Shown: in pieces, positions 784-61,042 of the stretch
How the letters are laid out: every line of letters starts with the position of its first letter
Numbering within the stretch: position 1 is the stretch's first letter
Made by a program: the position numbers and the translations under genes
Notes under the pieces: model-generated
What the model was told of the DNA's origin: nothing
Databases searched by the model: none
Seen by the model: only the letters and a program-made list of their open reading frames with translations
NCBI GenBank assembly: GCA_018673485.1
Contig: JABHCP010000002.1
Coordinates: forward strand, 1,502 to 65,501
Length of the DNA stretch: 64,000 nucleotides
Source of the DNA: Candidatus Uhrbacteria bacterium
GTDB lineage: Bacteria > Patescibacteriota > Patescibacteriia > UBA9934
Direction of reading: 5' to 3'

Positions 784-1206
784 TCAATCCTTGAGAAGCC
801 CGTACTTTTTGAGCTTCTCTCGTCCCTGCGGAACGATGCGGCTTAATCGATGGCGTTCCCGGGATCCAGACTTTGTCACACGATAGTCAGTATAGCCGGG
901 GCTGACTGAGGGCTCGCACGCTACCATCTTTTGCTTCCTGAGCATCTTGATCGTCTTCCAGATTAGGATAAAGCGCAAGCCCTTGATCGTGTCTCCAACG
1001 TGTTCATGGATACGGTCACCGCGGACCCATCCACACGCTCCAAATGGGCCCATGACGTAGGCTCCCTCAATTGCGCCGATTCGAGACATGGATTCGAGAA
1101 CAGCCCAAGCATACAGCTCGTACTTGGTGCGCTTGAAGTGGATGCTCCGACTGGTGCGGATTGCGATGAGCGTCGAAATAGCGAGAATGATCCAGGCGAT
1201 CGTCAT
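784..1206 (-). CDS. hypothetical membrane-anchored protein (local GC elevated)
   Basis: 140 aa ORF, N-terminal hydrophobic helix, followed by hairpin tccgccac-gag-gtggcgga at 745-768; no recognisable family. Confidence 0.35.
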   Translation of the reverse strand: MTIAWIILAISTLIAIRTSRSIHFKRTKYELYAWAVLESMSRIGAIEGAYVMGPFGACGWVRGDRIHEHVGDTIKGLRFILIWKTIKMLRKQKMVACEPSVSPGYTDYRVTKSGSRERHRLSRIVPQGREKLKKYGLLKD

Positions 1207-8768: not shown

Positions 8769-9470
8769 CTATCTTCCGTCAATGCCCAGTGTTGATAAAA
8801 GCTCTCTTCGTTCTGTTTTTGTGAGTTGTCGATAGTTTCCGGGGCCAAGCTCACCGAGCTTTACATTCATTACTCGAATGCGTTTGAGTGTTGCAACTTC
8901 GTATCCGAGTGCTGTACACATCCTTCTGATTTGTCGGTTGCGACCTTCCTTGAGGATGATTTTAAATTTCTTTGGACCAAGATTTTTTACAGGTGCAGGA
9001 TTTGTTACTCGTCCGTCGAGCATCACGCCCTTTTTCATTCCATCGAGAAACTTTCGATTCATTTCTTTGTTCACAGTAACAACGTATTCTTTTTCATGCT
9101 CAAATTTTGGACTGGCAATTTTATTGGCAATATCGCCGTTATTTGTGAGAAGTAATAGTCCAGTAGACTCAACATCAATTCGACCAATGTAGATTAGGCG
9201 CTCATCAGAATCGATGTAGTCAAAAACGGTATTGTCGGCATCCTCATCTGAAGTGCAGATAACACCATATGGTTTGTGAAATGCGATGAAGACATCACCT
9301 GAGCGTGGTCTGATGAGCTCACCGTCGACATAGACCTTCTGTCCTTCTTCAACCTGCTGCCCAACTTTTGCCAGATCATTCCCAATAGTAACCCGACCGT
9401 CATCAATAAGCGTGTCGGCTTTTCGTCTTGAACAAAATCCAGAATCAGCAATGTATTTGTTTAGTCTCAT
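8769..9470 (-). CDS. rRNA pseudouridine synthase, RsuA/RluB family (S4 domain + catalytic domain)
   Basis: N-terminal S4 (LNKYIADSGFCSRRKADTLI), catalytic motifs HKPYGVICT and GRIDVESTGLLLLTNNG. Confidence 0.85.
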   Translation of the reverse strand: MRLNKYIADSGFCSRRKADTLIDDGRVTIGNDLAKVGQQVEEGQKVYVDGELIRPRSGDVFIAFHKPYGVICTSDEDADNTVFDYIDSDERLIYIGRIDVESTGLLLLTNNGDIANKIASPKFEHEKEYVVTVNKEMNRKFLDGMKKGVMLDGRVTNPAPVKNLGPKKFKIILKEGRNRQIRRMCTALGYEVATLKRIRVMNVKLGELGPGNYRQLTKTERRELLSTLGIDGR

Positions 9471-9517
9471 ACGTGAAAGATCATAGCAGAAACCCCAATA
9501 AAATCAAGGTTTTAGCT

Positions 9518-9548
9518 CCAAGGTTGAACCTTAGAGGTTCAACCTTGG
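9518..9548. promoter_or_regulatory. palindrome ccaaggttgaacct-tag-aggttcaaccttgg (copy 2 of 2)
   Basis: Same element as 697-726; located about 50 bp upstream of the pseudouridine synthase start. Confidence 0.5.
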
Positions 9549-9702
9549 GTGTCATTCTGAGTGAATGCAGCGGCTCTCGCGCTTCCTTTATGTCCATCTT
9601 GTATAGATCGTTGTACAGCGCGTTGTTGTTTTGAGCTTTGTGTTTTTTCATGTAAGCTAAAAGTGTCTCATTTAGCCCCGAATGGTCGGGAAAGGAGTGA
9701 GT

Positions 9703-10161
9703 ATGAGGCAGTCTGTGTGCATCGATTGTCGGGCATGTCCTGACAAGGTTGAGCCGGTTCAACTGGGGCCAAACGATCATGAGAACATGCGCAACTGGAG
9801 TGAGGAGGAGCGCCAGGTTCTGTGCAGAGACAGTGCCGTTGTCATTGAGGGTGAGTCGGTACCAGAGAGCTCCATCGATACTGTGTGGGAGGTACTGCAG
9901 GCTGGGAGGGGATTTACGGTGATCGACAAAGGCGGACGGCGTCATGAATTTCCCCAGGAAGAAGGTATTAGCGAGCTGGAGTTCAGAGATCGCCACTGTG
10001 ATGGCTTGCGCATCTACATTTTCGTGCAGACATCGGAAAAGACAGCCACCATTTCACGCAGAGAATGGCCCAGTCGAGATTTGGCAAACGTAAATTGCAT
10101 CTCAAAGGCTGTAGAGAATGGACAGAGGCGTGGTAGGGCCCCAGTCTTGTTTCGCACGTAA
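9703..10161 (+). CDS. hypothetical small protein with N-terminal CxxCxxC motif (GC-enriched gene)
   Basis: Strong RBS aaaggagtgagt before ATG at 9703; about 55% GC versus about 42% background; own terminator hairpin ccccatgcc...ggtatgggg at 10205-10230. Confidence 0.45.
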   Translation: MRQSVCIDCRACPDKVEPVQLGPNDHENMRNWSEEERQVLCRDSAVVIEGESVPESSIDTVWEVLQAGRGFTVIDKGGRRHEFPQEEGISELEFRDRHCDGLRIYIFVQTSEKTATISRREWPSRDLANVNCISKAVENGQRRGRAPVLFRT

Positions 10162-10261
10162 TGTGCACTTGTTTAAGAGTCGAGCTTTCGCGCTCCTCTT
10201 GCGTCCACCCCATGCCAAACGCGGTATGGGGTGTTGTTGTTTGTGGAAAAAAGGGATTGAA

Positions 10262-10395
10262 GAGGTCGATGGCATTGAGGGGATTTAAAAACCACCCATC
10301 CCGACGATAGGAGGGATCCCGTGCGCAGCCGATTAAACGTTGGGCTATCTACGGGATTCCTCACTCCGTTCGGAATGGGTGGTTTATTTTTTTTG
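10262..10395. repeat. hairpin repeat module (family D copy 1) with outer inverted repeat aaaccacccatcc / ggaatgggtggttt and T-run
   Basis: Core ggatcccgtgcgYagccgatYtaacgt shared with 22283-22395; catcccgacg-taRggagggatc shared with 50672-50700. Confidence 0.6.
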
Positions 10396-10410
10396 AACTG
10401 CCTACTGCTC

Positions 10411-11382
10411 CTATCGTTTTTTCTTAATCACTCTCTGCGCTGCCTTTACTATCCATGGGGCGGTGAGTTTGTAGTGTTCTAGGAGTTCTTGTGGCGTTCC
10501 TGATTGTCCGAATTCGTCTTGGAGTCCGATGCGCTCAATTGGAACAGGGAATTCTTCGCTTAATAATTCGGCTACAGCTGAGCCCATACCTCCAGCGGCT
10601 TGAGCTTCTTCCGCCGTGACCACACACCCACATTCTTTTGCAGCTGCGAGGATTGTTTTCTCGTCCATTGGTTTTACGCTGGCATTATTAATGACCTGTG
10701 TTTTGATTCCGAGCTTTGATAATTGATCTGCCGCGAGCATGCATTCATATAATATTGGTCCGCAGCCAATGAGCGCCACGTCCGATCCCTTTAATAGTAC
10801 TTGAGCTTTTCCGATTTCAAACTTTGCCGATGGTGTAGTGAAGACTGGACTCTTTGCGCGAGCGAATCGGAGATATACGGGTCCTTTTTTCTTGGCAGCT
10901 GCGATCGTGGCCTTATGAGTTTCATTCGCGTCACATGGAACTAGCACTGTCATCTCGGGTAACACTCGCATCAAGGCGATGTCTTCAGTCATTTGATGCG
11001 TTGCGCCATCTGGTCCAACGGAAACTCCAGCATGTGCACCTGCAATTTTTAAATTCATCTTCTGCAAACATCCTGTGGTTCTAATTTGTTCCCAGTTTCG
11101 TCCAGGTGAGAACGCCGCGTAGCTTGAGATGAAGGCTGTCTTGCCAGCTAGTGCCATTCCAGCGCCAATTGCAGCCAGTGATTGTTCGCTAACTCCCATT
11201 TGCACAAATCGATCAGGATATGCGTCTTTAAAAGCCTGAACTCGCGTTGAGTCTGTTAGGTCAGCCGAAAGAACGTAGACGTTCTTGTTTGTTTTTCCAA
11301 GTTCAACCAAAGCGTCGCCGTATCCATTGCGGGTAGGGACGTGCTTGAGTGTATTTTTATTTTTCCAGCTGCGAATCAGCAT
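10411..11382 (-). CDS. transketolase, C-terminal subunit (pyrimidine-binding + C-terminal domains)
   Basis: Characteristic split-transketolase C-terminal-half sequence. Confidence 0.9.
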   Translation of the reverse strand: MLIRSWKNKNTLKHVPTRNGYGDALVELGKTNKNVYVLSADLTDSTRVQAFKDAYPDRFVQMGVSEQSLAAIGAGMALAGKTAFISSYAAFSPGRNWEQIRTTGCLQKMNLKIAGAHAGVSVGPDGATHQMTEDIALMRVLPEMTVLVPCDANETHKATIAAAKKKGPVYLRFARAKSPVFTTPSAKFEIGKAQVLLKGSDVALIGCGPILYECMLAADQLSKLGIKTQVINNASVKPMDEKTILAAAKECGCVVTAEEAQAAGGMGSAVAELLSEEFPVPIERIGLQDEFGQSGTPQELLEHYKLTAPWIVKAAQRVIKKKR

Positions 11383-14894: not shown

Positions 14895-15995
14895 TCAAAC
14901 ATCATAAGTGGACAGACTGTTGAGGGCCTTTGCTGGATCTTTTGCTTTCCAAATGACCGAAGATACGCAAAGCTGTTGGGCCCCAGCGTTAATTATGCTC
15001 TGTACTGAGTCTTGATTGATGCCACCGTCAACGGAAATCGGGATATTTGGGTATTTCTTTGTTACTTTTTTGATTTTCTTGAGGATTTTTTTACCTAGAA
15101 ATGATTGGCCTGATGCACCTGGGTGTACGCCCATTATTAAAATCGTATCGAGTAAATGCACGAGTGGCTTTATGATCTTGATCGGAGTTTCGGGATTAAG
15201 AGCCAGGCCTACATCGAGTCCTAGATTTTTTGCATAAGCAAGAATTGGTTTCAATGGTTTGTCGATCTCCGCATGGATTATCACGCGCCTGAGTGTTGGA
15301 ATGTTGAATTTCCATTCCTCGATTATTGGTAGGGGATCGAGGGCCATGAGGTGAAGCTCAATCTCGGGCAGATCTTTGATTTTTGATATTTGTTTGGCGT
15401 CAAAGAAAGAACGGGACTCAAACATCGAGTCGTCAAGTACATCGATTTGCCAGATTGAAGCTAGTTTACGAACTCCCGAGTTGAGAATTCGTTTTTTGAA
15501 TAGATCAAAATTTTGTACAAGGATCGCAGGCACTATCTCGACTTGTTTATTTTCAAATTGAGCGACCTGTGCCAGGCGACGCTTGTGACGTGCAGCTTGT
15601 TTGAAAGGAGTCTTTATAAATGTTTGCGCAATTTCGATTGGGTCGTCGATTGTTTCAATGCGTCCTGGAATGCAGATGATGTTTGCGTTGTCATCTTGCC
15701 GCATTGTGCGGGCTGCCTCGTTGGAGAATCCTAGACCGGCACGTACGTCATCAAATTTGTTGGCTGCAATGCAAACTCCCTCGGCATTTCCGCATGACAG
15801 AATTCCAAGCGCTCCTTTGTGGTTTGTGACGGCTCGAGCCACGTCGGCTGCATATTGTGGGTAATCATCTTTTGGATCCAGTTCATGAGCGCCAAGGTCT
15901 TCTACGTGGTGACCGTGCGTTTCGAGCTTTGCCTTGAGCGATTCCTTCATGATAAATCCTGCATGATCTGCTCCAATGTAAATAGTTTGTTTCAT
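14895..15995 (-). CDS. bifunctional ribose-5-phosphate isomerase B / ribulose-phosphate 3-epimerase fusion
   Basis: N-terminal RpiB (IYIGADHAGF ... SCGNAEGVCIAANK), C-terminal Rpe (MGVHPGASGQSF, SVDGGIN). Confidence 0.8.
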   Translation of the reverse strand: MKQTIYIGADHAGFIMKESLKAKLETHGHHVEDLGAHELDPKDDYPQYAADVARAVTNHKGALGILSCGNAEGVCIAANKFDDVRAGLGFSNEAARTMRQDDNANIICIPGRIETIDDPIEIAQTFIKTPFKQAARHKRRLAQVAQFENKQVEIVPAILVQNFDLFKKRILNSGVRKLASIWQIDVLDDSMFESRSFFDAKQISKIKDLPEIELHLMALDPLPIIEEWKFNIPTLRRVIIHAEIDKPLKPILAYAKNLGLDVGLALNPETPIKIIKPLVHLLDTILIMGVHPGASGQSFLGKKILKKIKKVTKKYPNIPISVDGGINQDSVQSIINAGAQQLCVSSVIWKAKDPAKALNSLSTYDV

Positions 15996-16005
15996 ATAGT
16001 CTTGT

Positions 16006-16506
16006 CTACCAATCAGTTACAGAACCTCGTTGTTTTTTTAATCGTCCCACCGTTTTTTTGTTTTTCAACCGTTTTTCTTTAGTGCTGCGTGATGGCTTTG
16101 TTACTTTTCGTACTTTTTGTATTTTTAGTGCCTCGCTAAGATATTCGTGCAGAATTTTCATCACGTCTCTTTTATTACTCGCGAGAGATTTGTTCCTTGT
16201 TGAAGTAATATAGATTTCGCCCTCACCTACAAATTGACTAGGTTTATTTTTCTGCATCCAATTCGTGACGCGTTCTTTTTCAGCGTCATTGAGTATTGTG
16301 GAGTCAGCAGGAGTCCAGCGAAACTCCGCAGTCTTTGCAGTTTTGTTTACATTTTGCCCACCAGGCCCAGCTGATGACTTTGTGACACTTATGGTTCCTT
16401 CTTGCCGGATAGCTTGCATGTCAGCTTTTGAAACTGATTCGCGTATTGTTTTCGGATTAGTACGTTCCAGTTGATCTATCCGTGAGTCTGTTTCTCTATT
16501 AATCAT
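16006..16506 (-). CDS. peptidyl-tRNA hydrolase ArfB-like (GGQ domain + basic C-tail)
   Basis: GPGGQNVNKT motif followed by K/R-rich tail. Confidence 0.7.
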   Translation of the reverse strand: MINRETDSRIDQLERTNPKTIRESVSKADMQAIRQEGTISVTKSSAGPGGQNVNKTAKTAEFRWTPADSTILNDAEKERVTNWMQKNKPSQFVGEGEIYITSTRNKSLASNKRDVMKILHEYLSEALKIQKVRKVTKPSRSTKEKRLKNKKTVGRLKKQRGSVTDW

Positions 16507-16626
16507 ATAGATTTGTTCATTCTCATTCTACCATTTTTGTGTTTTTTTACTGAAAGCGTAAACCCTACACCAGTCGGTGTAGGGCGCGGCCCTGCGAGTT
16601 GTACGAGGGGAGGGCGAGAGATGGGA

Positions 16627-17058
16627 TCATTGGATCATGGTGGGGTCGAGTTCTGCGCCTTCGGGCCACATGGCCTCGGGTGGCAGGTCGGTCAGGCCGA
16701 ACTTGTCAGGATCGCCGAAGAAGATGGAGAATTTGATCTGCAGATCGCCGTTGCGTACAGTGAGGTCATGCATCCCTTCCGATGGTCGTAGTGAGCGCAT
16801 CTGGTTGTCATGCAAAGGGATGCCCATGTGCGTGAGGGTTCGATCGCAGAGATCGTTTGGCGTGCTGAGCGTCCCAGCGACATTTCCACAGATCAAGCCG
16901 ATGGTGATCTCGACTGGGCCCATCACACGTTCGATGAAGTCGGGGTGGACACCGTTGATCGTCATCTTGTTGTTGAGCCTGATGATGGATGGGTCGCGTT
17001 CATCTACGTCGTAGTACACACGGTGACCACGATATTGAATGAGCAGTGCGTTTGCCAT
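16627..17058 (-). CDS. GC-rich small protein, paralog A of a tandem triplet (unknown function)
   Basis: Over 60% GC; alignable to 17695-18129 (LLIQYRGH / LLVVRSGH, VAGTL / IAGTL, FGLTDLP / YGLRGYNLEP). Confidence 0.5.
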   Translation of the reverse strand: MANALLIQYRGHRVYYDVDERDPSIIRLNNKMTINGVHPDFIERVMGPVEITIGLICGNVAGTLSTPNDLCDRTLTHMGIPLHDNQMRSLRPSEGMHDLTVRNGDLQIKFSIFFGDPDKFGLTDLPPEAMWPEGAELDPTMIQ

Positions 17059-17185
17059 GCGGGTCTCCGAGGTGGGGGTTGAGGACTATATTGACGTTAG
17101 CAATGATGATGATTCGCGTCAATAAAGTGTAAGCCCCGCAGCCGACTGTGTCGGCGCGGGGTAGTGAGGTGGTCGTGAAGCGCAT

Positions 17186-17554
17186 CTAGCGACCGAACTG
17201 GATCAGGGTCGGTGGTGCTCCAGTTGCGCTGACGTAGTAGTGAAGGACGAGTTCGTGATCTTCACGAATCAACCGAAGCTCATGCACACCACTACTTGGG
17301 TAGGTTGTGGCCTGTGTGGTGCGGCTTCCATTGAAGAAGGCGCGGATGTCGCCACGGATAGCGAATACGATTCGCTCCGCTTGCGGTGTCACGATGATCC
17401 ACGTATTGCCCATCAGCGCGCTCACGAAGTCTGCTTGGGCGCCGCGCACATCCATATGGCTATCAAAGACCATTTCATCGTCTTCGTAGCGAGGGTTGAT
17501 GGGATAGAAGAGCCCATCGAGGACTCGTCCTAACATGAAGATGGGGAGTGCCAT
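17186..17554 (-). CDS. GC-rich small protein, paralog B of a tandem triplet
   Basis: Strong RBS aaggagagacaac; HELRLIREDHELVLHYY aligns to HRLKIIRGDQEVELCLEY of paralog C. Confidence 0.5.
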   Translation of the reverse strand: MALPIFMLGRVLDGLFYPINPRYEDDEMVFDSHMDVRGAQADFVSALMGNTWIIVTPQAERIVFAIRGDIRAFFNGSRTTQATTYPSSGVHELRLIREDHELVLHYYVSATGAPPTLIQFGR

Positions 17555-17694
17555 GTTGTCTCTCCTTGCCTTTTGGCGTTGAGGTTGGCTAAATAGAGTA
17601 GTACTTTTTTACAAATATGTCAACCCAACCTGAAAGCAGTGAGCCCCGCAGCCGATCGTATCGGTGCGGGGCAGGGCGAGCTCACGAGGGCGCG

Positions 17695-18129
17695 TTAGGC
17701 GCCGAGGCGTGGAGGTTTGTTGGGGGTGGGTCTGGTCAGTCGTGGTGTCACGGGTTCCAGGTTGTAGCCGCGCAGGCCGTAGTTGTACTCGAGGCAGAGC
17801 TCAACCTCCTGGTCACCACGGATGATCTTGAGGCGGTGTTGCGAGTGGTCTGGCCCCAAGACGATGCCAGTGCACCACCGGCCATGGACCCTCACTTCAA
17901 TCTCGTTGACACGCAGAGTGCCCGCGATCGCCAGTCGGAAGCTATCATCTTGTTGATCTGGGATGAGCCGGATGACCAGGTCGCCTAGGACATCTTGGAT
18001 CTTGCGAATCGGGATCATGTGGATACTCATCCGCTTGTCGATGACGAAGTGGCCATCATCTTTGTTTCGTTGCAGGCGAGCCTTGCTGTGTCCGCTTCGG
18101 ACTACGAGTAGTGGTTTTGCGTAACTCAT
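17695..18129 (-). CDS. GC-rich small protein, paralog C of a tandem triplet
   Basis: Followed by hairpin agccccgcagccgatcgtatcggtgcgggg, near-identical to the hairpin after paralog B. Confidence 0.5.
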   Translation of the reverse strand: MSYAKPLLVVRSGHSKARLQRNKDDGHFVIDKRMSIHMIPIRKIQDVLGDLVIRLIPDQQDDSFRLAIAGTLRVNEIEVRVHGRWCTGIVLGPDHSQHRLKIIRGDQEVELCLEYNYGLRGYNLEPVTPRLTRPTPNKPPRLGA

Positions 18130-18391
18130 TCGAACTCTCTTTGCCCATTTAGGGCTGCTGGGGTCGTCAGAAAGGTAACAGTTTCAGCGCCAAAGGTCAA
18201 TCATTATGGTAACTTCGATAATACTGTATCGTCTAGTTAGATATGAAGTCGCAAATCATTATTAATCAGATTATTATTACGCCCTAACAAGCGCAGGACT
18301 TTCGATATCATAGATTATAATAAAGAAACCCTGCGCAGAGCAGGGATTTTTGCTTGATCTAAGCCCGATTCATTGATAATATTACAGCATT

Positions 18392-21274
18392 ATGACAGAC
18401 AAAAAGCGCGAAACTCATTCTCAAAAAGAGCACAAGATTGCTGATTATTGGGATAAAAACAAATGTTTTGAAAAGTCAGTAGAAAGTCGACCAGAAGGTA
18501 AGCCCTATGTTTTCTATGATGGCCCTCCTTTTGCAACCGGTCTTCCTCATTACGGCCATCTTGTAGGGTCGATAATGAAAGATGTCATTCCGCGTTATTG
18601 GACAATGAAAGGTTTTCGCGTAGAGCGCGTTTGGGGTTGGGACTGTCATGGGCTTCCGGTCGAGAATATTGTCGAGAAGCAACTTAAGCTTGGATCACGC
18701 CAAGATATTGAAAAGTTTGGTGTCGATAAGTTTAACGACAAGTGTCGTAATTGCGTTTTGACGTACGCAGAGGAATGGAAGAAGGTTATTCATCGATTAG
18801 GTCGTTGGATCGATATGGAGAATGCCTACAAGACGATGGATGTTGAGTACATGGAATCCATTTGGTGGGTGTTCAAATCGCTCTGGGACAAAGACATGAT
18901 CTATGAAGGGCGAAAGCCAATGCATATCTGCCCACGTTGCGAGACGGTGCTCTCAAACTTCGAGGTGACACAAGGTTATGAGGACGTAACCGACATTTCT
19001 GTAACTGTGAAGTTGAAACTGACTGATGGAAAGTATAAAGATGCATCACTTTTGGTTTGGACAACAACTCCATGGACTTTACCTGGAAATGTTTTGGCTG
19101 CTGTTGGGGCAGACGTTGATTATGTTGTAGTTCAAGTCGAAGATGAGAAGTTTATTATTGCTGAACCACTCGTGAAAGAGGTTTTGAAGGATGTTGAGTT
19201 TGAGCAGGTTGAAACATTGAAAGGTTCAGATCTTGTTGGCGCGACCTACGAACCAATTTTTCCTTTCTTTAAAGATCATGAAAATGCGTTTCGAGTTGTT
19301 GCGGCTGATTTTGTTACAACTGAGGACGGAACGGGGATCGTGCATATTGCACCTGGGTTTGGAGATGATGACATGCAACTTGGGCTTACGGAAAAGGTTG
19401 ATCCAATCATGCACGTCAATATGGATGGTACTTTTGTGCCTGAGGTTGCAGATCCGTTGCAGGAAGCTGGTTATGAAGTGAAGGATAGGCCAATGAAAGC
19501 AAAGGGCGACACCATGAGTGTTGATATTGAGGTTTTAAAATGGCTTGCACACAACGATAAGCTTTTCAAAAAGAAAAAAGTAGAGCACAGCTACCCGCAT
19601 TGTTGGCGTTGTGACACTCCGCTTTTGAATTACAGTACAAGTTCATGGTTTGTGCGTGTGACTGACATTAAGGAACAGTTAGTGCGAACAAATAAGGAGA
19701 TTAATTGGGTACCAGGGAACTTTAAAGAGGGGAGATTTGGAAAGTGGCTTGAGGGCGCTCGTGATTGGGCAATTTCTCGTTCACGATATTGGGGAACCCC
19801 GCTTCCAGTTTGGCGCGCAGAAGATGGCGAAACACTTTGCGTTGGCTCTAAGGCTGAGCTTGAGGAGCTCTCAGGTAAAAAAGTCGATGATCTGCATAAA
19901 CACATTGTTGATACGGTTGAGATTACGAAGGACGGAAAGGTTTACACGCGCATTCCTGAGGTATTAGACTGTTGGTTTGAATCTGGTTCAATGCCGTATG
20001 CACAATTGCATTATCCGTTTGAAAATAAGCAAAAATTTGAACAAGGGTTCCCGGCTGAGTTTATTGCCGAGGGGCAAGATCAAACGCGTGGTTGGTTTTA
20101 TACCTTGCACGTACTTTCAAATGCGCTTTTCAACATGCCTACATTTAAGAATGTGATTGTGAATGGAATTGTGCTGGCTGAGGACGGGAAGAAGATGTCT
20201 AAGCGTTTGCAGAACTATCCTGATCCAATGGAGGTGATGGATAAGTACGGGGCGGATGCTGTTCGATATTATTTGATGTCGACTCCTGTGGTGCGAGCCG
20301 AGAATTTACGGTTCAGTGAAGAGGGTGTGGTCGAGGTTTCTAAGAAGTTCATCAATATAATGAACAACGTGCTCTCATTTTATAAGTTGTATGCAAAAAA
20401 TGATGATGGACGAGCTCCATCGGGATTAAACGTGCTTGATAACTGGATACTTTCAAGATTGAATCAAACACTCAAAGAGCAAACCGAGGCATTGGACGGT
20501 TATGAACTTTCAATCGCAGCGCGCGTACTGCAGAGCTTTGTTACCGATCTTTCAACCTGGTACGTTCGGCGCTCAAGAGATCGATTTAAGGTTGAGGGTG
20601 AAGACCATGCCGAGGCGCTTGCTACATTGCGAGTGGTGCTCGAGACTTTCGCAAAGATGGTGGCCCCATTCATGCCTTACTTGGGCGAGGAGATTTATCA
20701 GGGAGTAACGGGAGAGTATAAAGATGAAGAGCGATTGAGTGTTCATCTGGAAGACTGGCCTCATATGGATTCGGTTGATGAGGATGTGCTCGAGAAGATG
20801 GGCCAAGCTCGCGCGATCGTTAGCCGAGTGCTTGAAGCTCGTGAAGAGGCAGGACGACCAATCAAGCAGGCATTGGGAGATATGACAGTTTGGACACCAT
20901 CTGGTGAGATCGTTGAAGATTATCAGGCCGTAATTTTGGGAGAGGTGAATGTGAAAGCTATGAAGGTTGAAAAGGGTGAGCTGAAGGTAGAGGTTGATAT
21001 GGAGCTAACGCCTGAGTTAATCCGCGAAGGAATGGCACGCGACATAACTCGTCGAGTGAACCAAATGCGCAAAGAGGCTGGTCTCACAATCAACGATCGG
21101 ATCGAGCTTAGAATGAGCTCAGAGTCCGATGAAGTTAAGAAGCTTTTCAAAGAGCACGCGGATACAATTAAAGATGGCACACTTGCAGATTCGATCGAGT
21201 TCACAAAAGACGAATCAGTAGAACGCAAGCAAGAAGTCCGAATCGCAGAACAAGAAGTTTGGTTGGGGTTCTAG
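18392..21274 (+). CDS. ileS: isoleucyl-tRNA synthetase
   Basis: HYGH (PHYGHLVGS) and KMSKR (KMSKRLQNY) motifs, 960 aa class I synthetase. Confidence 0.95.
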   Translation: MTDKKRETHSQKEHKIADYWDKNKCFEKSVESRPEGKPYVFYDGPPFATGLPHYGHLVGSIMKDVIPRYWTMKGFRVERVWGWDCHGLPVENIVEKQLKLGSRQDIEKFGVDKFNDKCRNCVLTYAEEWKKVIHRLGRWIDMENAYKTMDVEYMESIWWVFKSLWDKDMIYEGRKPMHICPRCETVLSNFEVTQGYEDVTDISVTVKLKLTDGKYKDASLLVWTTTPWTLPGNVLAAVGADVDYVVVQVEDEKFIIAEPLVKEVLKDVEFEQVETLKGSDLVGATYEPIFPFFKDHENAFRVVAADFVTTEDGTGIVHIAPGFGDDDMQLGLTEKVDPIMHVNMDGTFVPEVADPLQEAGYEVKDRPMKAKGDTMSVDIEVLKWLAHNDKLFKKKKVEHSYPHCWRCDTPLLNYSTSSWFVRVTDIKEQLVRTNKEINWVPGNFKEGRFGKWLEGARDWAISRSRYWGTPLPVWRAEDGETLCVGSKAELEELSGKKVDDLHKHIVDTVEITKDGKVYTRIPEVLDCWFESGSMPYAQLHYPFENKQKFEQGFPAEFIAEGQDQTRGWFYTLHVLSNALFNMPTFKNVIVNGIVLAEDGKKMSKRLQNYPDPMEVMDKYGADAVRYYLMSTPVVRAENLRFSEEGVVEVSKKFINIMNNVLSFYKLYAKNDDGRAPSGLNVLDNWILSRLNQTLKEQTEALDGYELSIAARVLQSFVTDLSTWYVRRSRDRFKVEGEDHAEALATLRVVLETFAKMVAPFMPYLGEEIYQGVTGEYKDEERLSVHLEDWPHMDSVDEDVLEKMGQARAIVSRVLEAREEAGRPIKQALGDMTVWTPSGEIVEDYQAVILGEVNVKAMKVEKGELKVEVDMELTPELIREGMARDITRRVNQMRKEAGLTINDRIELRMSSESDEVKKLFKEHADTIKDGTLADSIEFTKDESVERKQEVRIAEQEVWLGF

Positions 21275-25585: not shown

Positions 25586-25699
25586 TTCATTTGTCATCCA
25601 ATAGTTGTTATTCTGAGGTCGAAGACCAAAGAGTCCACTAGTAGATCCTTCGCAGAGCCTCAGGATGACAGAGGGGATAAATAAGACCTATAGGGCATG

Positions 25700-27050
25700 T
25701 AAGTTCTGTAGGTTTTTTTTGTTTGGAAAGTGCAGAACCCCGGCTACCACGTTCAGAAGTGTGGTAGTCGGGGTTCACGGGTGGGCCGTCGGAATCGAGT
25801 CCGTCGGTGTTGGCGATTTGGATCTTCTCGATGATCCTCCTCTTAGTTGTGGTTCATCGGGGGGGGTGACGGCGGAGACGATCGGCGCCGTCGGACTTTT
25901 GGGCCATAGAATACCTGTACCCAAGGCCTAGGCTGGCTTTTACCTTTTGCAAGGTGACCTGTTCCACGGGTCGGCTCCTAGCGTATGGAAGGACGTTTGG
26001 GTTCCTGTCCGGGGAGTCGCCTTTTTGGGGGCGGCTCGGGCGGTCACAGCCGAAGCTGAGCCATACGATCCTGCTGGAACGTCGATGTCTGAAGTCGCAC
26101 ATTCGCTCATCCAGAACTAAAGAATAATGCCATAATTTTGAGCTTTTGTCAAGCCTAAAGCACAAAAAGGCCTTGAAAGCCTTTTATTTACAAAGAAAAC
26201 GTCCGGCACGCTTGGCGCCGGACAGTGTGGGGATAGAACCCACTCGGAGGATTGTGGTTTGGCTCTGCGCGCTGATGTTTCTCCTCGTGACTCGAGCATT
26301 CTATAGGGGTGGAGTTGTTAATTCCAGATTCCTCTAAAGAGCACTGTCATAGTCACATCAGCAGAGCCTAGTGATCGTCTCGACACCTCTGGGGTACGTT
26401 GGCCTCGGAGTCGGGGGTGTCCTCGCGGGCGGTGGCGACGGAGGTCGCCACCGGGGGGCCGTTGCAACGCTGCATCGGATCTCCGGTTGGGGGTTTTGAG
26501 GGTTCAGGGGTTTGGTGGCTCGGACGTTCGATGGTCCGGGCTAGGCACCCTGTCCTCTGGGCTGTCCGAAGCCTGGTGGCTCCGGGGCGGTCGGTTCTGT
26601 GGCAGCCGGGTAGGGCTACCAGGTCAACGCTCCTGCTGGGCAGGAGAGCGGATCGCGGTCAGGACGAGGTCAAGCCTGGTCGTGAAAGCGGTCGGCAGGA
26701 GTAGAATAGCAGATATGGGGGATGTGTCAAGGCCGAGATGAGCCAGGGGGCACTTCGTCCCCCTGTAACCCCCAGACATACTTTCTTTGTTGGCTCAAAG
26801 AAAGTATGCAAAGAAAAAGCCTTTTCAGAGTGTTCCACGGCCGTAAAGAATGATGCGGCCTGCAGTCAATGTTTTTGGGTGACTATGAGTGGACTGATTG
26901 CCAGTTCGGTCGGCAGGCTCCCTCTCAGACGGGGTTGTCTGACAATGGGTGAACGGGGGCTGGCTGCTGAAACATTGCCGGGGGACTGAGGTGAGATTGA
27001 AAATGCAAAAGAACCGAGCGGTACCCGGTTCTTCAGCATAGTTTTAGGTT
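25700..27050. other. GC-rich (about 60%) non-coding, hairpin-dense segment; candidate large structured RNA or degenerate foreign insert
   Basis: No frame gives a credible protein (only R/G/A-rich short ORFs); many strong hairpins (25734-25775, 26165-26190, 26195-26225, 26770-26805, 27010-27040). Confidence 0.4.
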
Positions 27051-32716: not shown

Positions 32717-33042
32717 TTGTGCTCATTACGACAATAGACTTCCGTTTTTTACTTGCCATGTTTGGCTGCAAAGCCTTCAGATCTCGTCAAGATAGTCCCA
32801 CTATCTCTCCTCGATCTTCAAACTTTTCGCCTAAACATTCCTACGTAAAAATTCGAAATCTATTTTCGTAATAAGCACTTACATTTTATCACGAATTGAT
32901 GTAACTTTAGTGCTCAAATGTGGGTAACAGTGGATAAATTATTACACACGTCGTGATTGACGTGAACACATATTTTTGATAGGCTTCTCCCTTGGCTTTT
33001 CAAGGTCGAGAAATCCTTTCAAACCGCATCACGGAGGTGCGC

Positions 33043-33657
33043 ATGAGCAAGCAGAGAATGGATCCTAACGCCGAAGAGCAATTTCGGGCTCGAGCGCTTC
33101 TCGTGTTGGGTATTTTCATGGTGGCCGTGTTCACCTATGTGGCCGTTGTGAGCGATCTGCCATTCTGGCCGCAGGGTCAGGGGGGCGCCAACGAGGCCGT
33201 CCAGGTCGAGCGGCCGGAGCAGATGACCTCGCCCTACGCGCAGTTCTGCTTCCTGATCCCCGACGGCCTCGAGCTGCCTGTGAGCGTCCAAGCCAAGACG
33301 GTGGGTGGACGCAGTGTTGATCACCATACGGAGATCCCACTTTTTGCTCAGGAGGCGGAGGGGTCGTATTGCGGTGAGGTGTATATCACACCTCAGTATC
33401 CTGTCATGATGGTCACGATCATTCGCGATCCGCACTACACACCCGACTTCGAGGAGCTCTGGGTTCATGAGTCGCCGAGTGATGCTCCTCGGCAGATCAT
33501 TTGCACTGACGAGAAGTGCGAGGTGTTGCTCTATGACAGGACCAAGGTGCTCAATGTGTTCGGTCTCGAGCCACCTCTGGTCGACGAGACACGGATCTAT
33601 GGGTTCACTCCGGTCGATGGCAGTGTTTGGATCTCGAGCGAGCCAAAACAAAACTAG
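33043..33657 (+). CDS. GC-rich (about 60%) hypothetical membrane-anchored protein inside the glycosyltransferase cluster
   Basis: RBS ggaggtgcgc before ATG at 33043; TM ALLVLGIFMVAVFTYVAVV; followed by two hairpins at 33680-33750. Confidence 0.45.
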   Translation: MSKQRMDPNAEEQFRARALLVLGIFMVAVFTYVAVVSDLPFWPQGQGGANEAVQVERPEQMTSPYAQFCFLIPDGLELPVSVQAKTVGGRSVDHHTEIPLFAQEAEGSYCGEVYITPQYPVMMVTIIRDPHYTPDFEELWVHESPSDAPRQIICTDEKCEVLLYDRTKVLNVFGLEPPLVDETRIYGFTPVDGSVWISSEPKQN

Positions 33658-37711: not shown

Positions 37712-37759
37712 CCTGAGCAACAAAACGCACCGCGGTTGCGATGCGTTTTGTTGCTCAGG
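37712..37759. terminator. long hairpin cctgagcaacaaaacgca ... tgcgttttgttgctcagg (18 bp stem)
   Basis: Directly 3' of the RNase P RNA on the minus strand. Confidence 0.6.
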
Positions 37760-38185
37760 AAACTATAAGCCGAATTCTGTCCCCGACATAGCTCGTAGAG
37801 CGATGGCAAGGGATAGTCATTTATCTAGAATGATCGTTGCCAATCATTTCAAGCGAGCTACCTAATTTGCTCTTGCACCAGGATGGGTTTACCACGCCAC
37901 TGCGTCACCGCAGGGCGAAATGCGTAGCCTGTTGAGATCATGTGATCTCAGACACCGCATTACTTTTCACGTTTCACTTTGCTTGGCAAAGTTAGTATTG
38001 TCTCTGTGGCACTTTCCCTAAGTTTCATCAGACTGGCAGGAACAGATAATCCAGTTCCTTCCACTCTCATTTATATCTTGGTTGCTGTTAGCAACATCCT
38101 TTTTTCACAACGCGTTACCGCGCAGTGGGTGTTCGGACTTTCCTCATGGCGCAAAGCGCCAAGCGACTATCGGATTTCCTGAACG
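37755..38185 (-). ncRNA. rnpB: RNase P RNA (bacterial type, rnpB)
   Basis: On the minus strand: GAGGAAAGUCCGAACACC (P4 5' strand), GGUAACGCG, GGGAAAGUGCCACAGAGA, and near the 3' end GGGGACAGAAUUCGGCUUAUAG (P4 3' strand); P1 pairing UCAGGAAAU / GUUUCCUGA; not in the ORF track. Confidence 0.7.
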
Positions 38186-38362
38186 GGCAAACGATACCAT
38201 GATTAGCGCAGAATGTCAATGGGGGCAGACGTCAGAACCCAGACGTCAGACTACAGTTTAGTGTTATGACTGGATTCTGACGTCTGTATTCTGGGTTCTG
38301 TAAAAACAGTGATCCCCCGGACGTGGTCCGGGGGATAAGTGGGTCGTAGGGCTCGAGCCGTG

Positions 38363-38866
38363 CTAGTTGTCGCGGCAGTACTCATGCAATGCGGCCTGCA
38401 GATCCGCGACCTTCCGGAGTTTTGACAGGCCAACTCGGCACACACCTGTGCACGTGAACAGGCCTCGATCGCAGAACTCATGGCACCGTTCGGGGATTGC
38501 GAGGCAGAATTCACGCAAGGTCGTGGCTGTGACCATCTTGATCATGGCCGTGGGGTCGAGCGTGGTCATGCGAGCGACCGTCATGAAGGTGCGCTCGATC
38601 TCCGAGTATGCGATCTTGCAGCGCTCGGCGAGCGCGGTGGCTACGGCTGCCGTGACCTGCTCGCCGGTCTTCATGTTGAAGATGATGCTGTGCGAGGGAA
38701 GTGTGCCATCGGGCAGCACATCCTCCAGGTCAGTGAAGTGCACGAGCGCACGCTGGTGGTGCGACTTGAGGCGGCGCCACTGGCGTTGCGGGATGATGTC
38801 GAGGCACGAGTTGGTCGGGCGACCAGGGTTCGCGCTGGTGGGCGAGGAGGGGACAACTGCGGACAT
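38363..38866 (-). CDS. GC-rich (about 62%) hypothetical Cys-rich protein on an island flanked by inverted-repeat elements
   Basis: C-terminal C-x6-C-x3-C-x6-C-x3-C cluster; start codon uncertain (ORF opens inside the right-flank repeat); strong hairpin atcccccggac-gtg-gtccgggggat at 38313-38337. Confidence 0.4.
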   Translation of the reverse strand: MSAVVPSSPTSANPGRPTNSCLDIIPQRQWRRLKSHHQRALVHFTDLEDVLPDGTLPSHSIIFNMKTGEQVTAAVATALAERCKIAYSEIERTFMTVARMTTLDPTAMIKMVTATTLREFCLAIPERCHEFCDRGLFTCTGVCRVGLSKLRKVADLQAALHEYCRDN

Positions 38867-39129
38867 GTGGCAAACTCCTGGGGGAGATATCCGGGTTTCT
38901 GTTTCAGCTTGAGGGCTGCATGGAAGCCAGGCGCAGGTTGCACTTGACCAGAAAAATATAGCAGTGTTGGCGAAGAATGTCAATGAGGACGGTAGAAGAC
39001 GTCAGATGTCAGACTTCAGAACCCAGTTTAAGGTGCTGATGATATGGTCGGTAGGGGTTGTGAATAAAACAAAAGAACCGGTACATGCCGGTTCTAATAT
39101 GGGTTCTGAAGTCTGTATTCTGGGTTCTG

Positions 39130-52119: not shown

Positions 52120-53067
52120 TTATAGTTTTGGTATCGACTTCAGTACTTCTTTAAGTTTTTTTGGAATTGGTGCGGTGAATGTTTTTGTCTCACCTGAAGG
52201 AAGAGTAATTGTTAGCTCTCGTGAGTGCAGGAATATCCGATCGATGTTCATCAGTTTTTGATCACGTTGTTTGTACAGAGGGTCACCAACAATCGGATGC
52301 TTGATAGCAAACATGTGCGCGCGGATTTGGTTGGTTCGCCCGGTTTCGATTTTTACGTTAAGTAGTGCGTGATGCGGGAATTGATCAACCACTTCGTAGT
52401 GCGTTATTGCAGATTTACCACCTTGCGATTCTGGTCGCGCTGCCATCTTACCGGTGGACTTAGAACGTCCGATAGTTAGTGTGATAGTGTCATACGGTTT
52501 TGGCATTGTGCCGTGAACCAACGCCGTGTATTCCTTTGTTGTTTTTCTTTCTTTGAATTGTGCTTTTAAGTGCTCAAAAGCTTTTTGTGTTTTTGCAGTG
52601 ATCAAAACACCGGACGTGAACTTGTCGAGTCTGTGCACGATCCCGGCTCGTTTTTCGTCATCACCAACTTTCTTCACCTTACGGTTTCGAGCAACTAACG
52701 CATCGCGCAAAGTTGTGTCTGTGCTGATCTCTGTTGGATGTACTAGCAGGCCAGCAGGTTTGTTTACAACTAAAACATCCTTATCTTCATATATAATATC
52801 GAGCTCGACAGTTTTCTGCTTTTTGAAGAGCTTTATCTTAGGTTTCTCGATGTGATATTCAATTTTATTCTCACGACTAACCTGTGTTTTTTTGTTGGCA
52901 GTTTTACCATCAACCAAAACTTCTCCTTTTTCTATCATCTTAGTGAGTTTCGATCGACTCAAATCAAGCATAGACGCCAAGACCTTATCCAAGCGCTCAG
53001 GTACTTCATTTGTAAGCTTTAATGTTTTCATAACGGCAGTATCGCACGATTGACGCGCATGGGTCAA
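52120..53067 (-). CDS. RluA-family pseudouridine synthase (RluD-like, S4 domain)
   Basis: HRLDKFTSGVLITAKT catalytic motif; probable true start MKTLKL at 53031. Confidence 0.85.
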   Translation of the reverse strand: MTHARQSCDTAVMKTLKLTNEVPERLDKVLASMLDLSRSKLTKMIEKGEVLVDGKTANKKTQVSRENKIEYHIEKPKIKLFKKQKTVELDIIYEDKDVLVVNKPAGLLVHPTEISTDTTLRDALVARNRKVKKVGDDEKRAGIVHRLDKFTSGVLITAKTQKAFEHLKAQFKERKTTKEYTALVHGTMPKPYDTITLTIGRSKSTGKMAARPESQGGKSAITHYEVVDQFPHHALLNVKIETGRTNQIRAHMFAIKHPIVGDPLYKQRDQKLMNIDRIFLHSRELTITLPSGETKTFTAPIPKKLKEVLKSIPKL

Positions 53068-53090
53068 TTTGATAGCATAATTTCGGAATA

Positions 53091-54264: not shown

Positions 54265-54341
54265 TGGTGGGTCTGGCTGGACTCGAACCAGCGACCACGG
54301 AGGTATAAGCTCCGCGCTCTAACCAACTGAGCTACAGACCC
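54265..54341 (-). tRNA. tRNA-Ile (anticodon TAT)
   Basis: RC GGGTCTGTAGCTCAGTTGGTTAGAGCGCGGAGCTTATACCTCCGTGGTCGCTGGTTCGAGTCCAGCCAGACCCACCA; perfect cloverleaf; anticodon loop CTTATAC. Confidence 0.75.
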
Positions 54342-54468
54342 GTATCATTTTTGTCTGTAGCGAAGTTGGTCGGGAACCAACTGCCTGCCCGCCGAAGCTC
54401 GAAGAGCGAAGGCGGGAGCTACAGACCCATTTTATCAGCCAATAATTTACCGCGAAAATCAGCTCTTG

Positions 54469-54924
54469 TCAATGCACGTGGAACTCGTTTATTTTTCCGA
54501 TCGCTTCTGGTTTGCTTTCATCAAGCTTTTCGTCTACCCATGATTGATTACGGGCGCGCGATAGGAATAGGAGTATGGAGCCGAGTGCGAGCAAGCCTAC
54601 AAACCATATCACTCCCATCACAATAATCGAGAGCATTCCGCAGGCCATGACAGATGCGAGTTGCTCAAATATATCGTTAGCTTGTACTAGGCATGATTGT
54701 ATTTCATTGCGTCCGAATACGTATGCGGTGTGTGAGGCGCCGTAAGCGCATCCTATTGAAGCCAATGTGAATAGGCAGCTGAATTGCGCTTTGCGTAACT
54801 TTGCCACTTTGAAAAGTGCGGCAATGGAAAAAATGATACCACCAACAATCCAGTACAGAACAAACCATACGATGCCAACTGGAATTAGTAGCATCCATTC
54901 TTGCATATTAAAAAGTTTCAACAC
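54469..54924 (-). CDS. hypothetical polytopic membrane protein
   Basis: 151 aa, 4 predicted TM helices. Confidence 0.45.
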   Translation of the reverse strand: MLKLFNMQEWMLLIPVGIVWFVLYWIVGGIIFSIAALFKVAKLRKAQFSCLFTLASIGCAYGASHTAYVFGRNEIQSCLVQANDIFEQLASVMACGMLSIIVMGVIWFVGLLALGSILLFLSRARNQSWVDEKLDESKPEAIGKINEFHVH

Positions 54925-60860: not shown

Positions 60861-61042
60861 GATTCCTCCACGATGCTGTTGAGTGATTTGGAAGTCGAAC
60901 TATAAACACCCCCATGTTTTATCGCTTACGTGCGAGTTTGTCAAAATATTGACTATTACTAGGTGATATCGTAAGTTAATTGTGCTAGTCGGAAAAGTAC
61001 TTTTGCATTTCCGCAGAGCACAGAACTAGCTTGGGAGAAGAG

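What the first reader, a model, noticed from the sequence alone, without database searches (positions are those of the whole stretch)
16560..18130. Tandem triplet of GC-rich paralogous small ORFs in a low-GC genome
Three co-directional ORFs (143, 122 and 144 aa) have over 60% GC against a roughly 42% backbone. They are mutually alignable: LLIQYRGH / LLVVRSGH; FVSALMGNTWIIVTPQ / IQDVLGDLVIRLIPDQ; HELRLIREDHELVLHYY / HRLKIIRGDQEVELCLEY. Each has its own RBS and promoter-like TTGAC box. Paralogs B and C are each followed by a near-identical GC hairpin (agccccgcagccgaYYgtRtcggYgcgggg), so the gene-plus-terminator unit looks tandemly duplicated. I recognise no known family. Tandem paralogous small-protein arrays of foreign composition are typical of immunity-protein cassettes or host-derived acquisitions.
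Basis: partly seen in the sequence, partly recalled or inferred. Interest (0 to 1): 0.8.

Follow-up and report, generated by a model that had tools for sequence, protein, structure and literature searches.

The report
GC-rich triplet of FHA-fold genes
Three neighbouring small genes in an uncultured Uhrbacteria-like (CPR) bacterium are real, anciently duplicated copies of a tiny lineage-restricted family whose predicted fold is that of FHA protein-binding domains, and their high G+C content is a long-standing trait of the family, not an assembly error or a recent foreign insertion.

Summary
Three minus-strand genes are present: C 17695-18129, B 17186-17554 and A 16627-17058. Each has a native-type promoter (TTGACA-N17-TAnnnT), an RBS and a GC hairpin downstream. 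G+C is 55-57% (region 56.2%) against 44.3% elsewhere, not above 60%. Pairwise similarity is weak, but subfamily profiles align significantly (hhalign E 2e-6 to 1e-11).

The locus is 100% identical in six independent assemblies, so it is not a chimera. Orthologous C-B-A, B-A or C-A sets lie between ileS and rpiB-rpe in at least five related lineages. All are GC3-rich although synonymous sites are saturated.

An exhaustive HMMER search of 1.84 billion representatives found only 11 credible members. No member hits Pfam, NCBIfam, PHROGs or PADLOC.

The genes evolve 3-6 times faster than their neighbours, under purifying selection.

Best reading: fast-evolving, non-canonical FHA-fold binding adaptors of unknown target. 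The immunity-cassette and recent host-derived readings are not supported. Interest is moderate.

The parts
17695..18129 (-). Gene C (144 aa), C-type paralogue. FHA-like beta-sandwich core (about residues 5-117) followed by a proline-rich, low-confidence tail.
17186..17554 (-). Gene B (122 aa), B-type paralogue.
   Evidence: ORF. It is identical to P0003, 'hypothetical protein, Candidatus Uhrbacteria bacterium'. Orthologues are L003:682-1068, P0008, P0009 and L013:724-1128. Omega is 0.12-0.38. hhalign against the C-type profile gives 97%.
16627..17058 (-). Gene A (143 aa), A-type paralogue. FHA-like core plus a conserved acidic C-terminal tail (LPxEA..EGAEL).
18172..18200 (-). Promoter of C: TTGACC-N17-TACCTT. 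A weak RBS (GAGAG) lies at 18135-18139.
   Evidence: Pattern match (16 sites in the window against 2.75 expected). The same arrangement is kept in the L001 species (TTGACA-N17-TAAATT). Function is inferred.
17595..17623 (-). Promoter of B: TTGACA-N17-TACTCT. The RBS (AGGAG) lies at 17562-17566.
   Evidence: The arrangement is conserved in L001/L003, L013 and L014. Function is inferred.
17094..17122 (-). Promoter of A: TTGACG-N17-TAACGT, lying inside a TTGACG...CGTCAA palindrome. The RBS (GGAG) lies at 17066-17069.
   Evidence: The arrangement is conserved in L003, L013, L014 and L016. Function is inferred.
17644..17671 (-). GC hairpin downstream of C (CCCCGCACCGAT-ACG-ATCGGCTGCGGGG), followed by an interrupted T-tract. 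Terminator-like.
   Evidence: Predicted folding energy is -28 kcal/mol, z -4.5. The outer stem CCCCGC/GCGGGG is kept and the inner stem differs in orthologues. The strict terminator scan did not flag it.
17134..17161 (-). GC hairpin downstream of B (CCCCGCGCCGAC-ACA-GTCGGCTGCGGGG). Terminator-like, and a copy of the hairpin downstream of C.
   Evidence: 83% identical over 36 nt, spacing 510. Predicted folding energy is -23.7 kcal/mol, z -5.6.
16563..16584 (-). Hairpin downstream of A (CCCTACACC-GACT-GGTGTAGGG), followed by TTTACGCTTT. Terminator-like, with a sequence different from the other two.
   Evidence: -21.5 kcal/mol for the 51-nt context, z -2.9. Hairpins occupy the equivalent place in L003, L013 and L014.

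Best explanation
The region holds three genuine, separately transcribed protein-coding genes on the minus strand, in the order C, B, A. They are ancient paralogues of a very small family. Where the source organism is named, it is a Candidatus Uhrbacteria (CPR/Patescibacteria) assembly. In all but one of the contigs read, two or three members sit in the same chromosomal slot, between ileS and (arfB) rpiB-rpe.

Each protein is a single cytoplasmic domain of about 115 residues. It is predicted to fold as an FHA/SMAD-type beta-sandwich with one inserted helix. A-type and C-type members carry short tails that are predicted to be disordered. The family lacks the conserved Gly-Arg, Ser-x-x-His and Asn residues that canonical FHA domains use to bind phosphothreonine.

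The most likely mode of action (inferred) is as non-catalytic adaptors or regulators that bind proteins or peptides, independently of phosphorylation or in a non-canonical way. Non-canonical FHA modules such as YscD, PrgH and EssC, which appear among the structural matches, may be a parallel; that comparison is recalled, not tested here. The partners are unknown.

Each gene is driven by a consensus native promoter and closed by its own hairpin. The proteins evolve several times faster than their neighbours but under purifying selection.

The GC enrichment affects all codon positions and gives arginine in place of lysine. It is a persistent feature of the family, and of other ORFan islands in this genome. 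It reflects either an old acquisition that is only partly ameliorated or a GC-enriching process acting in place. It is not a recent insertion.
For: Shown:
- Coding status. Codon-position GC is periodic (GC1 0.58-0.65, GC2 0.38-0.41, GC3 0.63-0.69). dN/dS is below 1 against three sets of orthologues. AF2 models are confident even from small alignments (pLDDT 85 and 72). There is no Rfam match.
- Paralogy..
- Restricted distribution. There are 12 hits among 1.84e9 representatives, one of them probably spurious, and only 5 clusters in the 5.8e9-cluster word-seeded searches. A pattern scan of GTDB genomes found nothing real.
- Not an artefact. The sequence is 100% identical in L006-L011.
- Conserved synteny with variable copy number. 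L001-L005 and L013 carry C-B-A and L012 carries C-B-A fragments. L014 carries B-A and L016 carries C-A.
- Fast evolution. Amino-acid identity to orthologues is 24-66%, against 86-89% for IleRS and 70-79% for RpiB-Rpe.
- Native promoter type. TTGAC-N18-TAnnnT is enriched 16 against 2.75 expected. It also precedes tRNA genes and RNase P RNA. It is conserved before each orthologue.
- Persistent composition. GC3 is 0.48-0.87 in all orthologues, against 0.30-0.49 in their flanks. K/(K+R) is 0-0.30, against 0.59 in the backbone. The strand skew matches the chromosome.
Against: - The function is inferred from the fold alone. No partner, kinase or phosphatase lies nearby.
- The models rest on alignments of only 5 and 12 sequences.
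- The cause of the GC enrichment is unresolved.
- Promoters and terminators are predicted only, and the generic scans did not call them.
Confidence: 0.6

Rival explanations
1. Canonical FHA signalling modules. On this reading the three proteins read phosphothreonine marks written by a Hanks-type kinase elsewhere in the genome, as GarA/OdhI or FhaA/FhaB do in Actinobacteria.
For: The predicted fold matches FHA domains, and the top hits include the mycobacterial GarA, FhaA, EmbR and Rv1747. The size and single-domain-plus-tail layout recall GarA/OdhI. The GarA sequence used for comparison was verified against PDB 2kfu.
Against: The 12-13-sequence family alignment has no invariant Arg, Ser or Asn column. 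Only one His, one Gly and one Ile are (nearly) invariant. No member hits the Pfam FHA model even at E<=10. The tails contain no conserved Thr. No kinase or phosphatase was found among the neighbours or among the 10 large ORFs of the window that were scanned.
Confidence: 0.15
2. One reading: an orphan immunity-gene cassette, that is, small paralogous immunity proteins against polymorphic toxins of competitors.
For: The genes are tandem small paralogues, each with its own promoter. They diverge quickly. Copy number varies between lineages (3, 2 or 2).
Confidence: 0.08
3. A horizontally acquired island from a GC-rich donor, such as a host or partner organism or its phage. In its weaker form this means one ancestral acquisition before the clade radiated, followed by duplication and slow amelioration.
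For: Composition is atypical at all codon positions and arginine replaces lysine. With dS of about 1 per lineage, a donor GC3 above 0.9 could have decayed to the observed 0.5-0.85. A-type genes in L001 and L014 have already fallen to GC3 0.48. Other GC-rich ORFan islands occupy intergenic slots, and one slot holds unrelated genes in two lineages.
Against: No donor homologue turned up in 1.84e9 representatives. The viral structure library gave no match and PHROGs gave none. There are no flanking repeats, tRNA junction or mobility genes. The genes use the recipient's own promoter consensus and follow its strand skew. Presence in at least six lineages rules out a recent event.
Confidence: 0.3
4. 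The ORFs are not genes. The GC-rich block would instead be a structured RNA, a repeat element, or spurious ORFs that stay open only because GC-rich DNA has few stop codons.
For: GC-rich DNA in an AT-rich genome often marks RNA genes. Long antisense ORFs also exist here (for example 16637-17014 + and 17617-17988 +). Gene callers elsewhere chose antisense frames.
Against: The sense frames keep their frame, their indels and a nonsynonymous rate below the synonymous one across lineages. They give confident, mutually consistent AF2 folds. They have RBS motifs. There is no Rfam hit at E<=1.
Confidence: 0.02

Closest known systems
FHA (forkhead-associated) domains, Pfam PF00498, within the SMAD/FHA fold (for example M. 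tuberculosis GarA, FhaA and EmbR, and Bdellovibrio DgcB)
   Different: There is no detectable sequence relationship. The phosphothreonine-binding Gly-Arg, Ser-x-x-His and Asn signature is not conserved. The predicted structure has a helix (about residues 39-48) between early strands. No linked kinase or phosphatase was found.
Non-canonical FHA-like modules of secretion machines (YscD/PrgH N-terminal domains, EssC/YukB FHA domains)
   Different: Those are domains of large membrane proteins encoded inside secretion-system operons. Here the proteins stand alone, appear soluble, and sit among housekeeping genes.
Phage 'morons' (autonomous promoter-gene-terminator units of deviant composition inserted between conserved genes)
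   Same: The architecture is the same. Each gene has its own promoter and hairpin, differs in G+C from its neighbours, and occupies an intergenic slot between conserved genes.
   Different: The setting is a bacterial chromosome between ileS and rpiB-rpe, not a prophage. There is no PHROG or viral-structure match. The units are inherited vertically within the clade.
Orphan immunity-gene arrays of polymorphic toxin systems
   Same: Tandem small paralogues with repeated intergenic sequence and individual promoters.
   Different: There is no toxin, recombinase or immunity-family match, and the ordered orthologues are stable.

Membership tests
FHA domain (PF00498) | Eleven-stranded beta-sandwich of the SMAD/FHA fold | tested here: met
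FHA domain (PF00498) | Significant match to the FHA sequence profile | tested here: not met
   There is no Pfam FHA hit for any of 13 members even at E<=10. hhalign of the family profile against the GarA FHA domain gives probability 0.5%. A profile search of all PDB sequences returns no FHA protein.
FHA domain (PF00498) | Conserved phosphothreonine-binding residues (Gly-Arg, Ser-x-x-His, Asn) | tested here: not met
   The family alignments have only H97, G47 and I51 (numbering of A) as invariant or nearly invariant. No Arg, Ser or Asn column is conserved across the three subfamilies.
FHA domain (PF00498) | Binding of phosphothreonine peptides; functional link to Ser/Thr kinases and phosphatases | not testable with these tools
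   No kinase or phosphatase domain was found in the neighbours or in the 10 large ORFs scanned. The complete genome was not available.
Polymorphic-toxin immunity cassette | Adjacent toxin gene or toxin-domain remnant, or an associated recombinase | tested here: not met
   The neighbours are ileS, arfB (RF-1 domain), rpiB-rpe, an SPW-domain protein and transketolase. No repeats bound the island.
Polymorphic-toxin immunity cassette | Match to a known immunity or defence protein family | tested here: not met
   No hit in Pfam, NCBIfam or PADLOC.
Integron gene cassettes | attC sites with RYYYAAC / GTTRRRY cores, and an intI integrase | tested here: not met
   The hairpins read CCCCGC...GCGGGG and have no GTTRRRY core (sequence). 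The immediate neighbours are housekeeping genes, none of them an integrase. Each gene carries its own promoter, unlike typical cassettes.
Recently acquired genomic island | Atypical composition | tested here: met
   The region is 56.2% GC against 44.3%. GC3 is 0.63-0.69 against 0.388 +/- 0.037.
Recently acquired genomic island | Absence from close relatives; mobility genes or insertion scars | tested here: not met
   Orthologous sets sit in the same slot in at least five other lineages whose synonymous sites are saturated. There are no flanking repeats or mobility genes.
Phage moron | Autonomous promoter-gene-terminator unit of deviant composition | tested here: met
   The elements are predicted, not measured.
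Phage moron | Location inside a phage or prophage genome | tested here: not met
   The flanks are housekeeping genes. There is no PHROG match and no BFVD structural match at E<=0.001.

The most novel reading that the evidence does not exclude
The triplet is the oldest and best-conserved example of a class of GC-rich, autonomously transcribed ORFan units that colonise intergenic slots of this CPR lineage. At least six more lie in this 64-kb window. They would be maintained GC-rich by a process acting in place, or by continuing exchange with a GC-rich gene pool. Within that class, the FHA-fold proteins would be host-interaction factors: decoys or adaptors that interfere with FHA- and phosphothreonine-based signalling of a GC-rich host. 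Such signalling was recently reported as the host's anti-epibiont alarm in Actinobacteria (PMC13622651).
Probability: 0.06. Interest if true: 0.8.

Novelty: new variant of a known kind. Interest (0 to 1): 0.4.

Why it matters
The finding adds a sequence family that no library annotates. The family is confined to a small group of uncultured Uhrbacteria-like bacteria and has diverged from FHA domains beyond recognition by sequence. It also shows that structure prediction can place such CPR 'dark matter' proteins in a fold class.

The more unusual point is compositional. ORFan and acquired genes are normally more AT-rich than their host genome. Here a whole class of ORFans is markedly GC-rich. 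They carry the genome's own strong promoter type and have stayed GC-rich across lineages whose synonymous sites are saturated.

Explaining that pattern would inform how reduced symbiont genomes gain and keep new genes. Candidate causes are old transfer from a GC-rich partner, GC-biased gene conversion at recombining loci, and selection.

The function of the proteins themselves remains unproven.

Tried and rejected
- Family libraries. Pfam, NCBIfam, PHROGs and PADLOC scans of the three proteins and of other GC-rich ORFs found nothing meaningful.
- Rfam. The region gave no match at E<=1, so a structured-RNA reading was dropped.
- Word-seeded protein searches. They found only self-hits plus P0004 and P0005. 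The exhaustive HMMER run was needed to find P0006-P0012. P0013, a 1980-aa mucin-like repeat protein at E 1e-4, was judged spurious.
- The search for related loci. It failed twice with the broad alignments. With a narrow alignment it returned only a false Bacteroidetes hit in a coiled-coil protein with no HMM score.
- Structure libraries. The AFDB Foldseek library was unavailable. The viral library gave no match.
- Predict-structure restriction.
- Profile searches toward FHA. The PDB-sequence profile search and hhalign against GarA gave no sequence-level link to FHA.
- Generic promoter and terminator scan. It did not call the conserved elements, so support for them comes from cross-species conservation and from motif enrichment.
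- A 'C-ending codons only' (translational selection) explanation of the GC excess. I dropped it. G3, GC1 and the Arg/Lys ratio are also shifted, and the C-over-G excess simply follows the chromosome's strand skew.
- Integron attC, T-box leader and flanking direct repeats. I looked for all three and found none.
Full report
**What is there.** The interval 16560-18130 contains three ORFs of exactly the lengths reported. All are on the minus strand: C 17695-18129 (144 aa), B 17186-17554 (122 aa) and A 16627-17058 (143 aa). They lie between ileS (18392-21274, + strand) and, on the minus strand, arfB (16006-16506, RF-1 domain), followed by a fused rpiB-rpe gene (14895-15995).

**Composition.**
- The genes are 55.3, 55.3 and 57.2% G+C.
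- The whole interval is 56.2%, against 44.3% for the rest of the window.
- The interval is nevertheless the most GC-rich 1.57-kb stretch of the 64 kb.
- GC3 is 0.63-0.69, against 0.388 +/- 0.037 (maximum 0.46) for 37 backbone genes.
- GC1 is also raised, and arginine replaces lysine: K/(K+R) is 0-0.30 against 0.59.

**Are they genes, and are they paralogues?**
- Pairwise BLASTP is weak: B/C 2e-5, A/B 0.004, A/C 0.07.
- The multiple alignment is consistent.
- Once orthologues are added, three clear subfamilies emerge. Their profiles align significantly: hhalign A/B 89.5% (E 2e-6), A/C 86% (E 5e-6), B/C 97% (E 1e-11).
- GC is periodic across codon positions. dN/dS is below 1 against three independent sets of orthologues: about 0.1-0.35 for A and B, and 0.44-0.55 for C, with dS saturated.
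- The AlphaFold models are confident, and Rfam gives no hit at E<=1.
- Together these results show that the sense frames encode proteins.
- A profile search of the six-frame translation of the window finds only these three members.

**Transcription signals.**
- Each gene is preceded by TTGAC(A/G/C)-N17-TAnnnT (18200-18172, 17623-17595 and 17122-17094) and by an RBS-like GAGAG, AGGAG or GGAG.
- The pattern TTGAC-N18-TAnnnT occurs 16 times in the window against 2.75 expected. It sits in front of tRNA genes and RNase P RNA, so it is the genome's own promoter type.
- The same promoter arrangement is kept in front of the orthologues in other lineages.
- C and B are each followed by a copy of a 36-nt GC hairpin, 83% identical and 510 nt apart. 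Predicted folding energies are -28 and -23.7 kcal/mol.
- A is followed by a different hairpin (16563-16584).
- In orthologues the outer stem CCCCGC/GCGGGG is kept and the inner stem changes on both sides. This fits a functional terminator-type hairpin with an interrupted T-tract.
- The generic promoter and terminator scan did not flag these sites, so their function is inferred.

**Not an artefact, and not recent.** The 2.6-kb locus is 100% identical in six assemblies from NCBI (GCA_018644925.1, Candidatus Uhrbacteria bacterium), ENA and JGI. That excludes a chimeric join. Related lineages carry orthologous sets in the same slot:
- L001-L005: C-B-A, with A 66%, B 63% and C 41% identical.
- L013: C-B-A.
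- L012: C-B-A fragments, with B and A abutting.
- L014 (GCA_900089805.1): B-A only.
- L016 (GCA_964452565.1): C-A only, with C miscalled on the opposite strand.
- L015: a C-type gene in a different neighbourhood, at a contig end.

The flanking IleRS is 86-89% identical and RpiB-Rpe 70-79%. The family members are 24-66% identical, so they evolve several times faster. In every lineage they are GC3-rich (0.48-0.87) relative to their flanks (0.30-0.49).

**Distribution.** The word-seeded searches of 5.8 billion clusters returned only the three proteins plus P0004 and P0005. The exhaustive HMMER search of 1.84 billion representatives returned 12 proteins. Four are the query's own clusters. Seven are further members (P0006-P0012). 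One is a probably spurious mucin-like repeat protein. No member has a hit in Pfam, NCBIfam, PHROGs or PADLOC. The family is therefore unannotated and, as far as these collections show, confined to a handful of closely related lineages; the only named source is Candidatus Uhrbacteria.

**Fold.**
- The AlphaFold2 model of C was built from a 5-sequence alignment (pLDDT 72). The model of A was built from a 12-sequence alignment (pLDDT 85, pTM 0.77).
- Both show ten to eleven strands with one helix.
- Sequence methods give no link to FHA. No FHA hit appears at E<=10 in any of 13 members. hhalign against the verified GarA FHA sequence gives 0.5%. A profile search of PDB sequences gives nothing.
- The family-wide invariant residues are one His, one Gly and one Ile. 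The Gly-Arg, Ser-x-x-His and Asn residues that define phosphothreonine binding are not conserved.
- The proteins therefore have an FHA-type fold but do not pass the membership test for canonical FHA domains.

**How it most likely works.**
- Shown: there are three autonomous transcription units that encode soluble, single-domain proteins with an FHA-type fold. They evolve fast but under constraint.
- Inferred: they act as non-catalytic binding modules, as FHA-fold proteins generally do. Binding would be without, or with a non-canonical form of, phosphothreonine recognition. The conserved acidic tail of A-type members and the proline-rich tail of C-type members may serve as ligands or regulatory arms.
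- No partner can be named. No kinase or phosphatase is nearby.

**The composition puzzle.**
- The window holds at least six more GC-rich islands: 784-1206, 9481-9996, 25.6-27.0 kb, 32992-33657, 38363-38983 and 55178-55768, and more weakly 61031-61669.
- Their ORFs have no family hits.
- The one searched (the ORF at about 33 kb) has only a self-match in 5.8 billion clusters.
- Several sit behind the same native promoter motif.
- The islands follow the chromosome's strand skew. Those on the minus strand have C3 above G3, and those on the plus strand have G3 above C3. This argues for long residence.
- One intergenic slot, downstream of the transketolase C-terminal-subunit gene (10411-11382), holds unrelated GC-rich ORFs in two lineages.
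- An old acquisition from a very GC-rich donor, now partly ameliorated, remains possible. A-type genes in two lineages have fallen to GC3 0.48.
- A GC-enriching process acting in place, such as biased gene conversion at recombining loci, also remains possible.
- Recent transfer, phage origin and translational selection alone are not supported.

**Verdict.** The reading as tandemly duplicated units is right, but the duplication is ancient. The 'immunity cassette or host-derived' interpretation lacks support. The family is a new, very narrow, non-canonical variant of the FHA-fold class, and its function is not established. Interest is moderate. It rests mainly on the persistent GC-rich ORFan phenomenon rather than on the proteins themselves.

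Noticed in passing
window 784-1206(-), 9481-9996(-), 32992-33657(+), 38363-38983(-), 55178-55768(-), 61031-61669(+): Besides the triplet, the window holds a class of GC-rich ORFan islands with GC3 of 0.53-0.74, against 0.33-0.46 for backbone genes. None has a Pfam hit. Several sit directly behind the native promoter motif TTGAC-N18-TAnnnT. The ORF at about 33 kb matches only itself in 5.8 billion protein clusters.
   Followed up: partly
window 25600-27050: A 1.4-kb stretch has 51-58% GC, and 26399-26704 reaches 68%. It has no convincing ORF. Terminator-like hairpins lie at about 26168-26186 and 27010-27040. Rfam gives no credible match (best E 0.07, far below gathering scores). It may be an unknown RNA or decayed genes.
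   Followed up: partly
window, 16 sites (e.g. 641-669, 38191-38219, 53050-53078, 54444-54472): TTGAC-N18-TAnnnT is strongly enriched: 16 sites against 2.75 expected, and none of 100 shuffles reached 16. It precedes tRNA genes and RNase P RNA. It appears to be this organism's promoter consensus, with a -10 element (TAnnnT) looser than TATAAT.
   Followed up: partly
window 18329-18345: A hairpin (CCCTGC-GCAGA-GCAGGG) has an A-run on one side and a T-run on the other, so it looks like a terminator on both strands. It lies between the promoter of gene C and the ileS start codon. It is conserved in the L001 species but not in L016. No T-box or other Rfam leader was detected.
   Followed up: partly
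window 16006-16506; L001, L013, L016: The arfB-like gene (RF-1 domain) lies between gene A and rpiB-rpe in the window and in L014. It is absent from that position in L001, L013 and L016. This slot therefore also varies between lineages.
   Followed up: no
L001 2165-2569(-), L016 6382-6933(-): Public gene calls chose long antisense ORFs in place of the real B-type and C-type genes. GC-rich genes in these genomes are therefore partly hidden from protein databases, and family counts based on predicted proteins are underestimates.
   Followed up: yes
L016 13368-14364 vs window 9400-10420: The intergenic slot downstream of the transketolase C-terminal-subunit gene holds GC-rich ORFs in both genomes, but they share no detectable similarity. 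This suggests turnover of GC-rich ORFans at fixed slots.
   Followed up: partly
window 54265-54341(-): ARAGORN predicts a tRNA-Ile with anticodon TAT. Most bacteria, from general knowledge, instead use a lysidine-modified CAT tRNA for AUA codons.
   Followed up: no
window 37751-38182(-) and 38200-39000: RNase P RNA (class A, 158.8 bits) lies directly next to a 60% GC island. The longest ORF of that island has only a faint PADLOC match to a homing endonuclease (E 0.016).
   Followed up: no
P0013 (1980 aa, not in the window): A mucin-like repeat protein of eukaryotic type scored E 1e-4 against the family profile through four repeated stretches of about 45 residues. I judged it spurious but did not test it further.
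   Followed up: no
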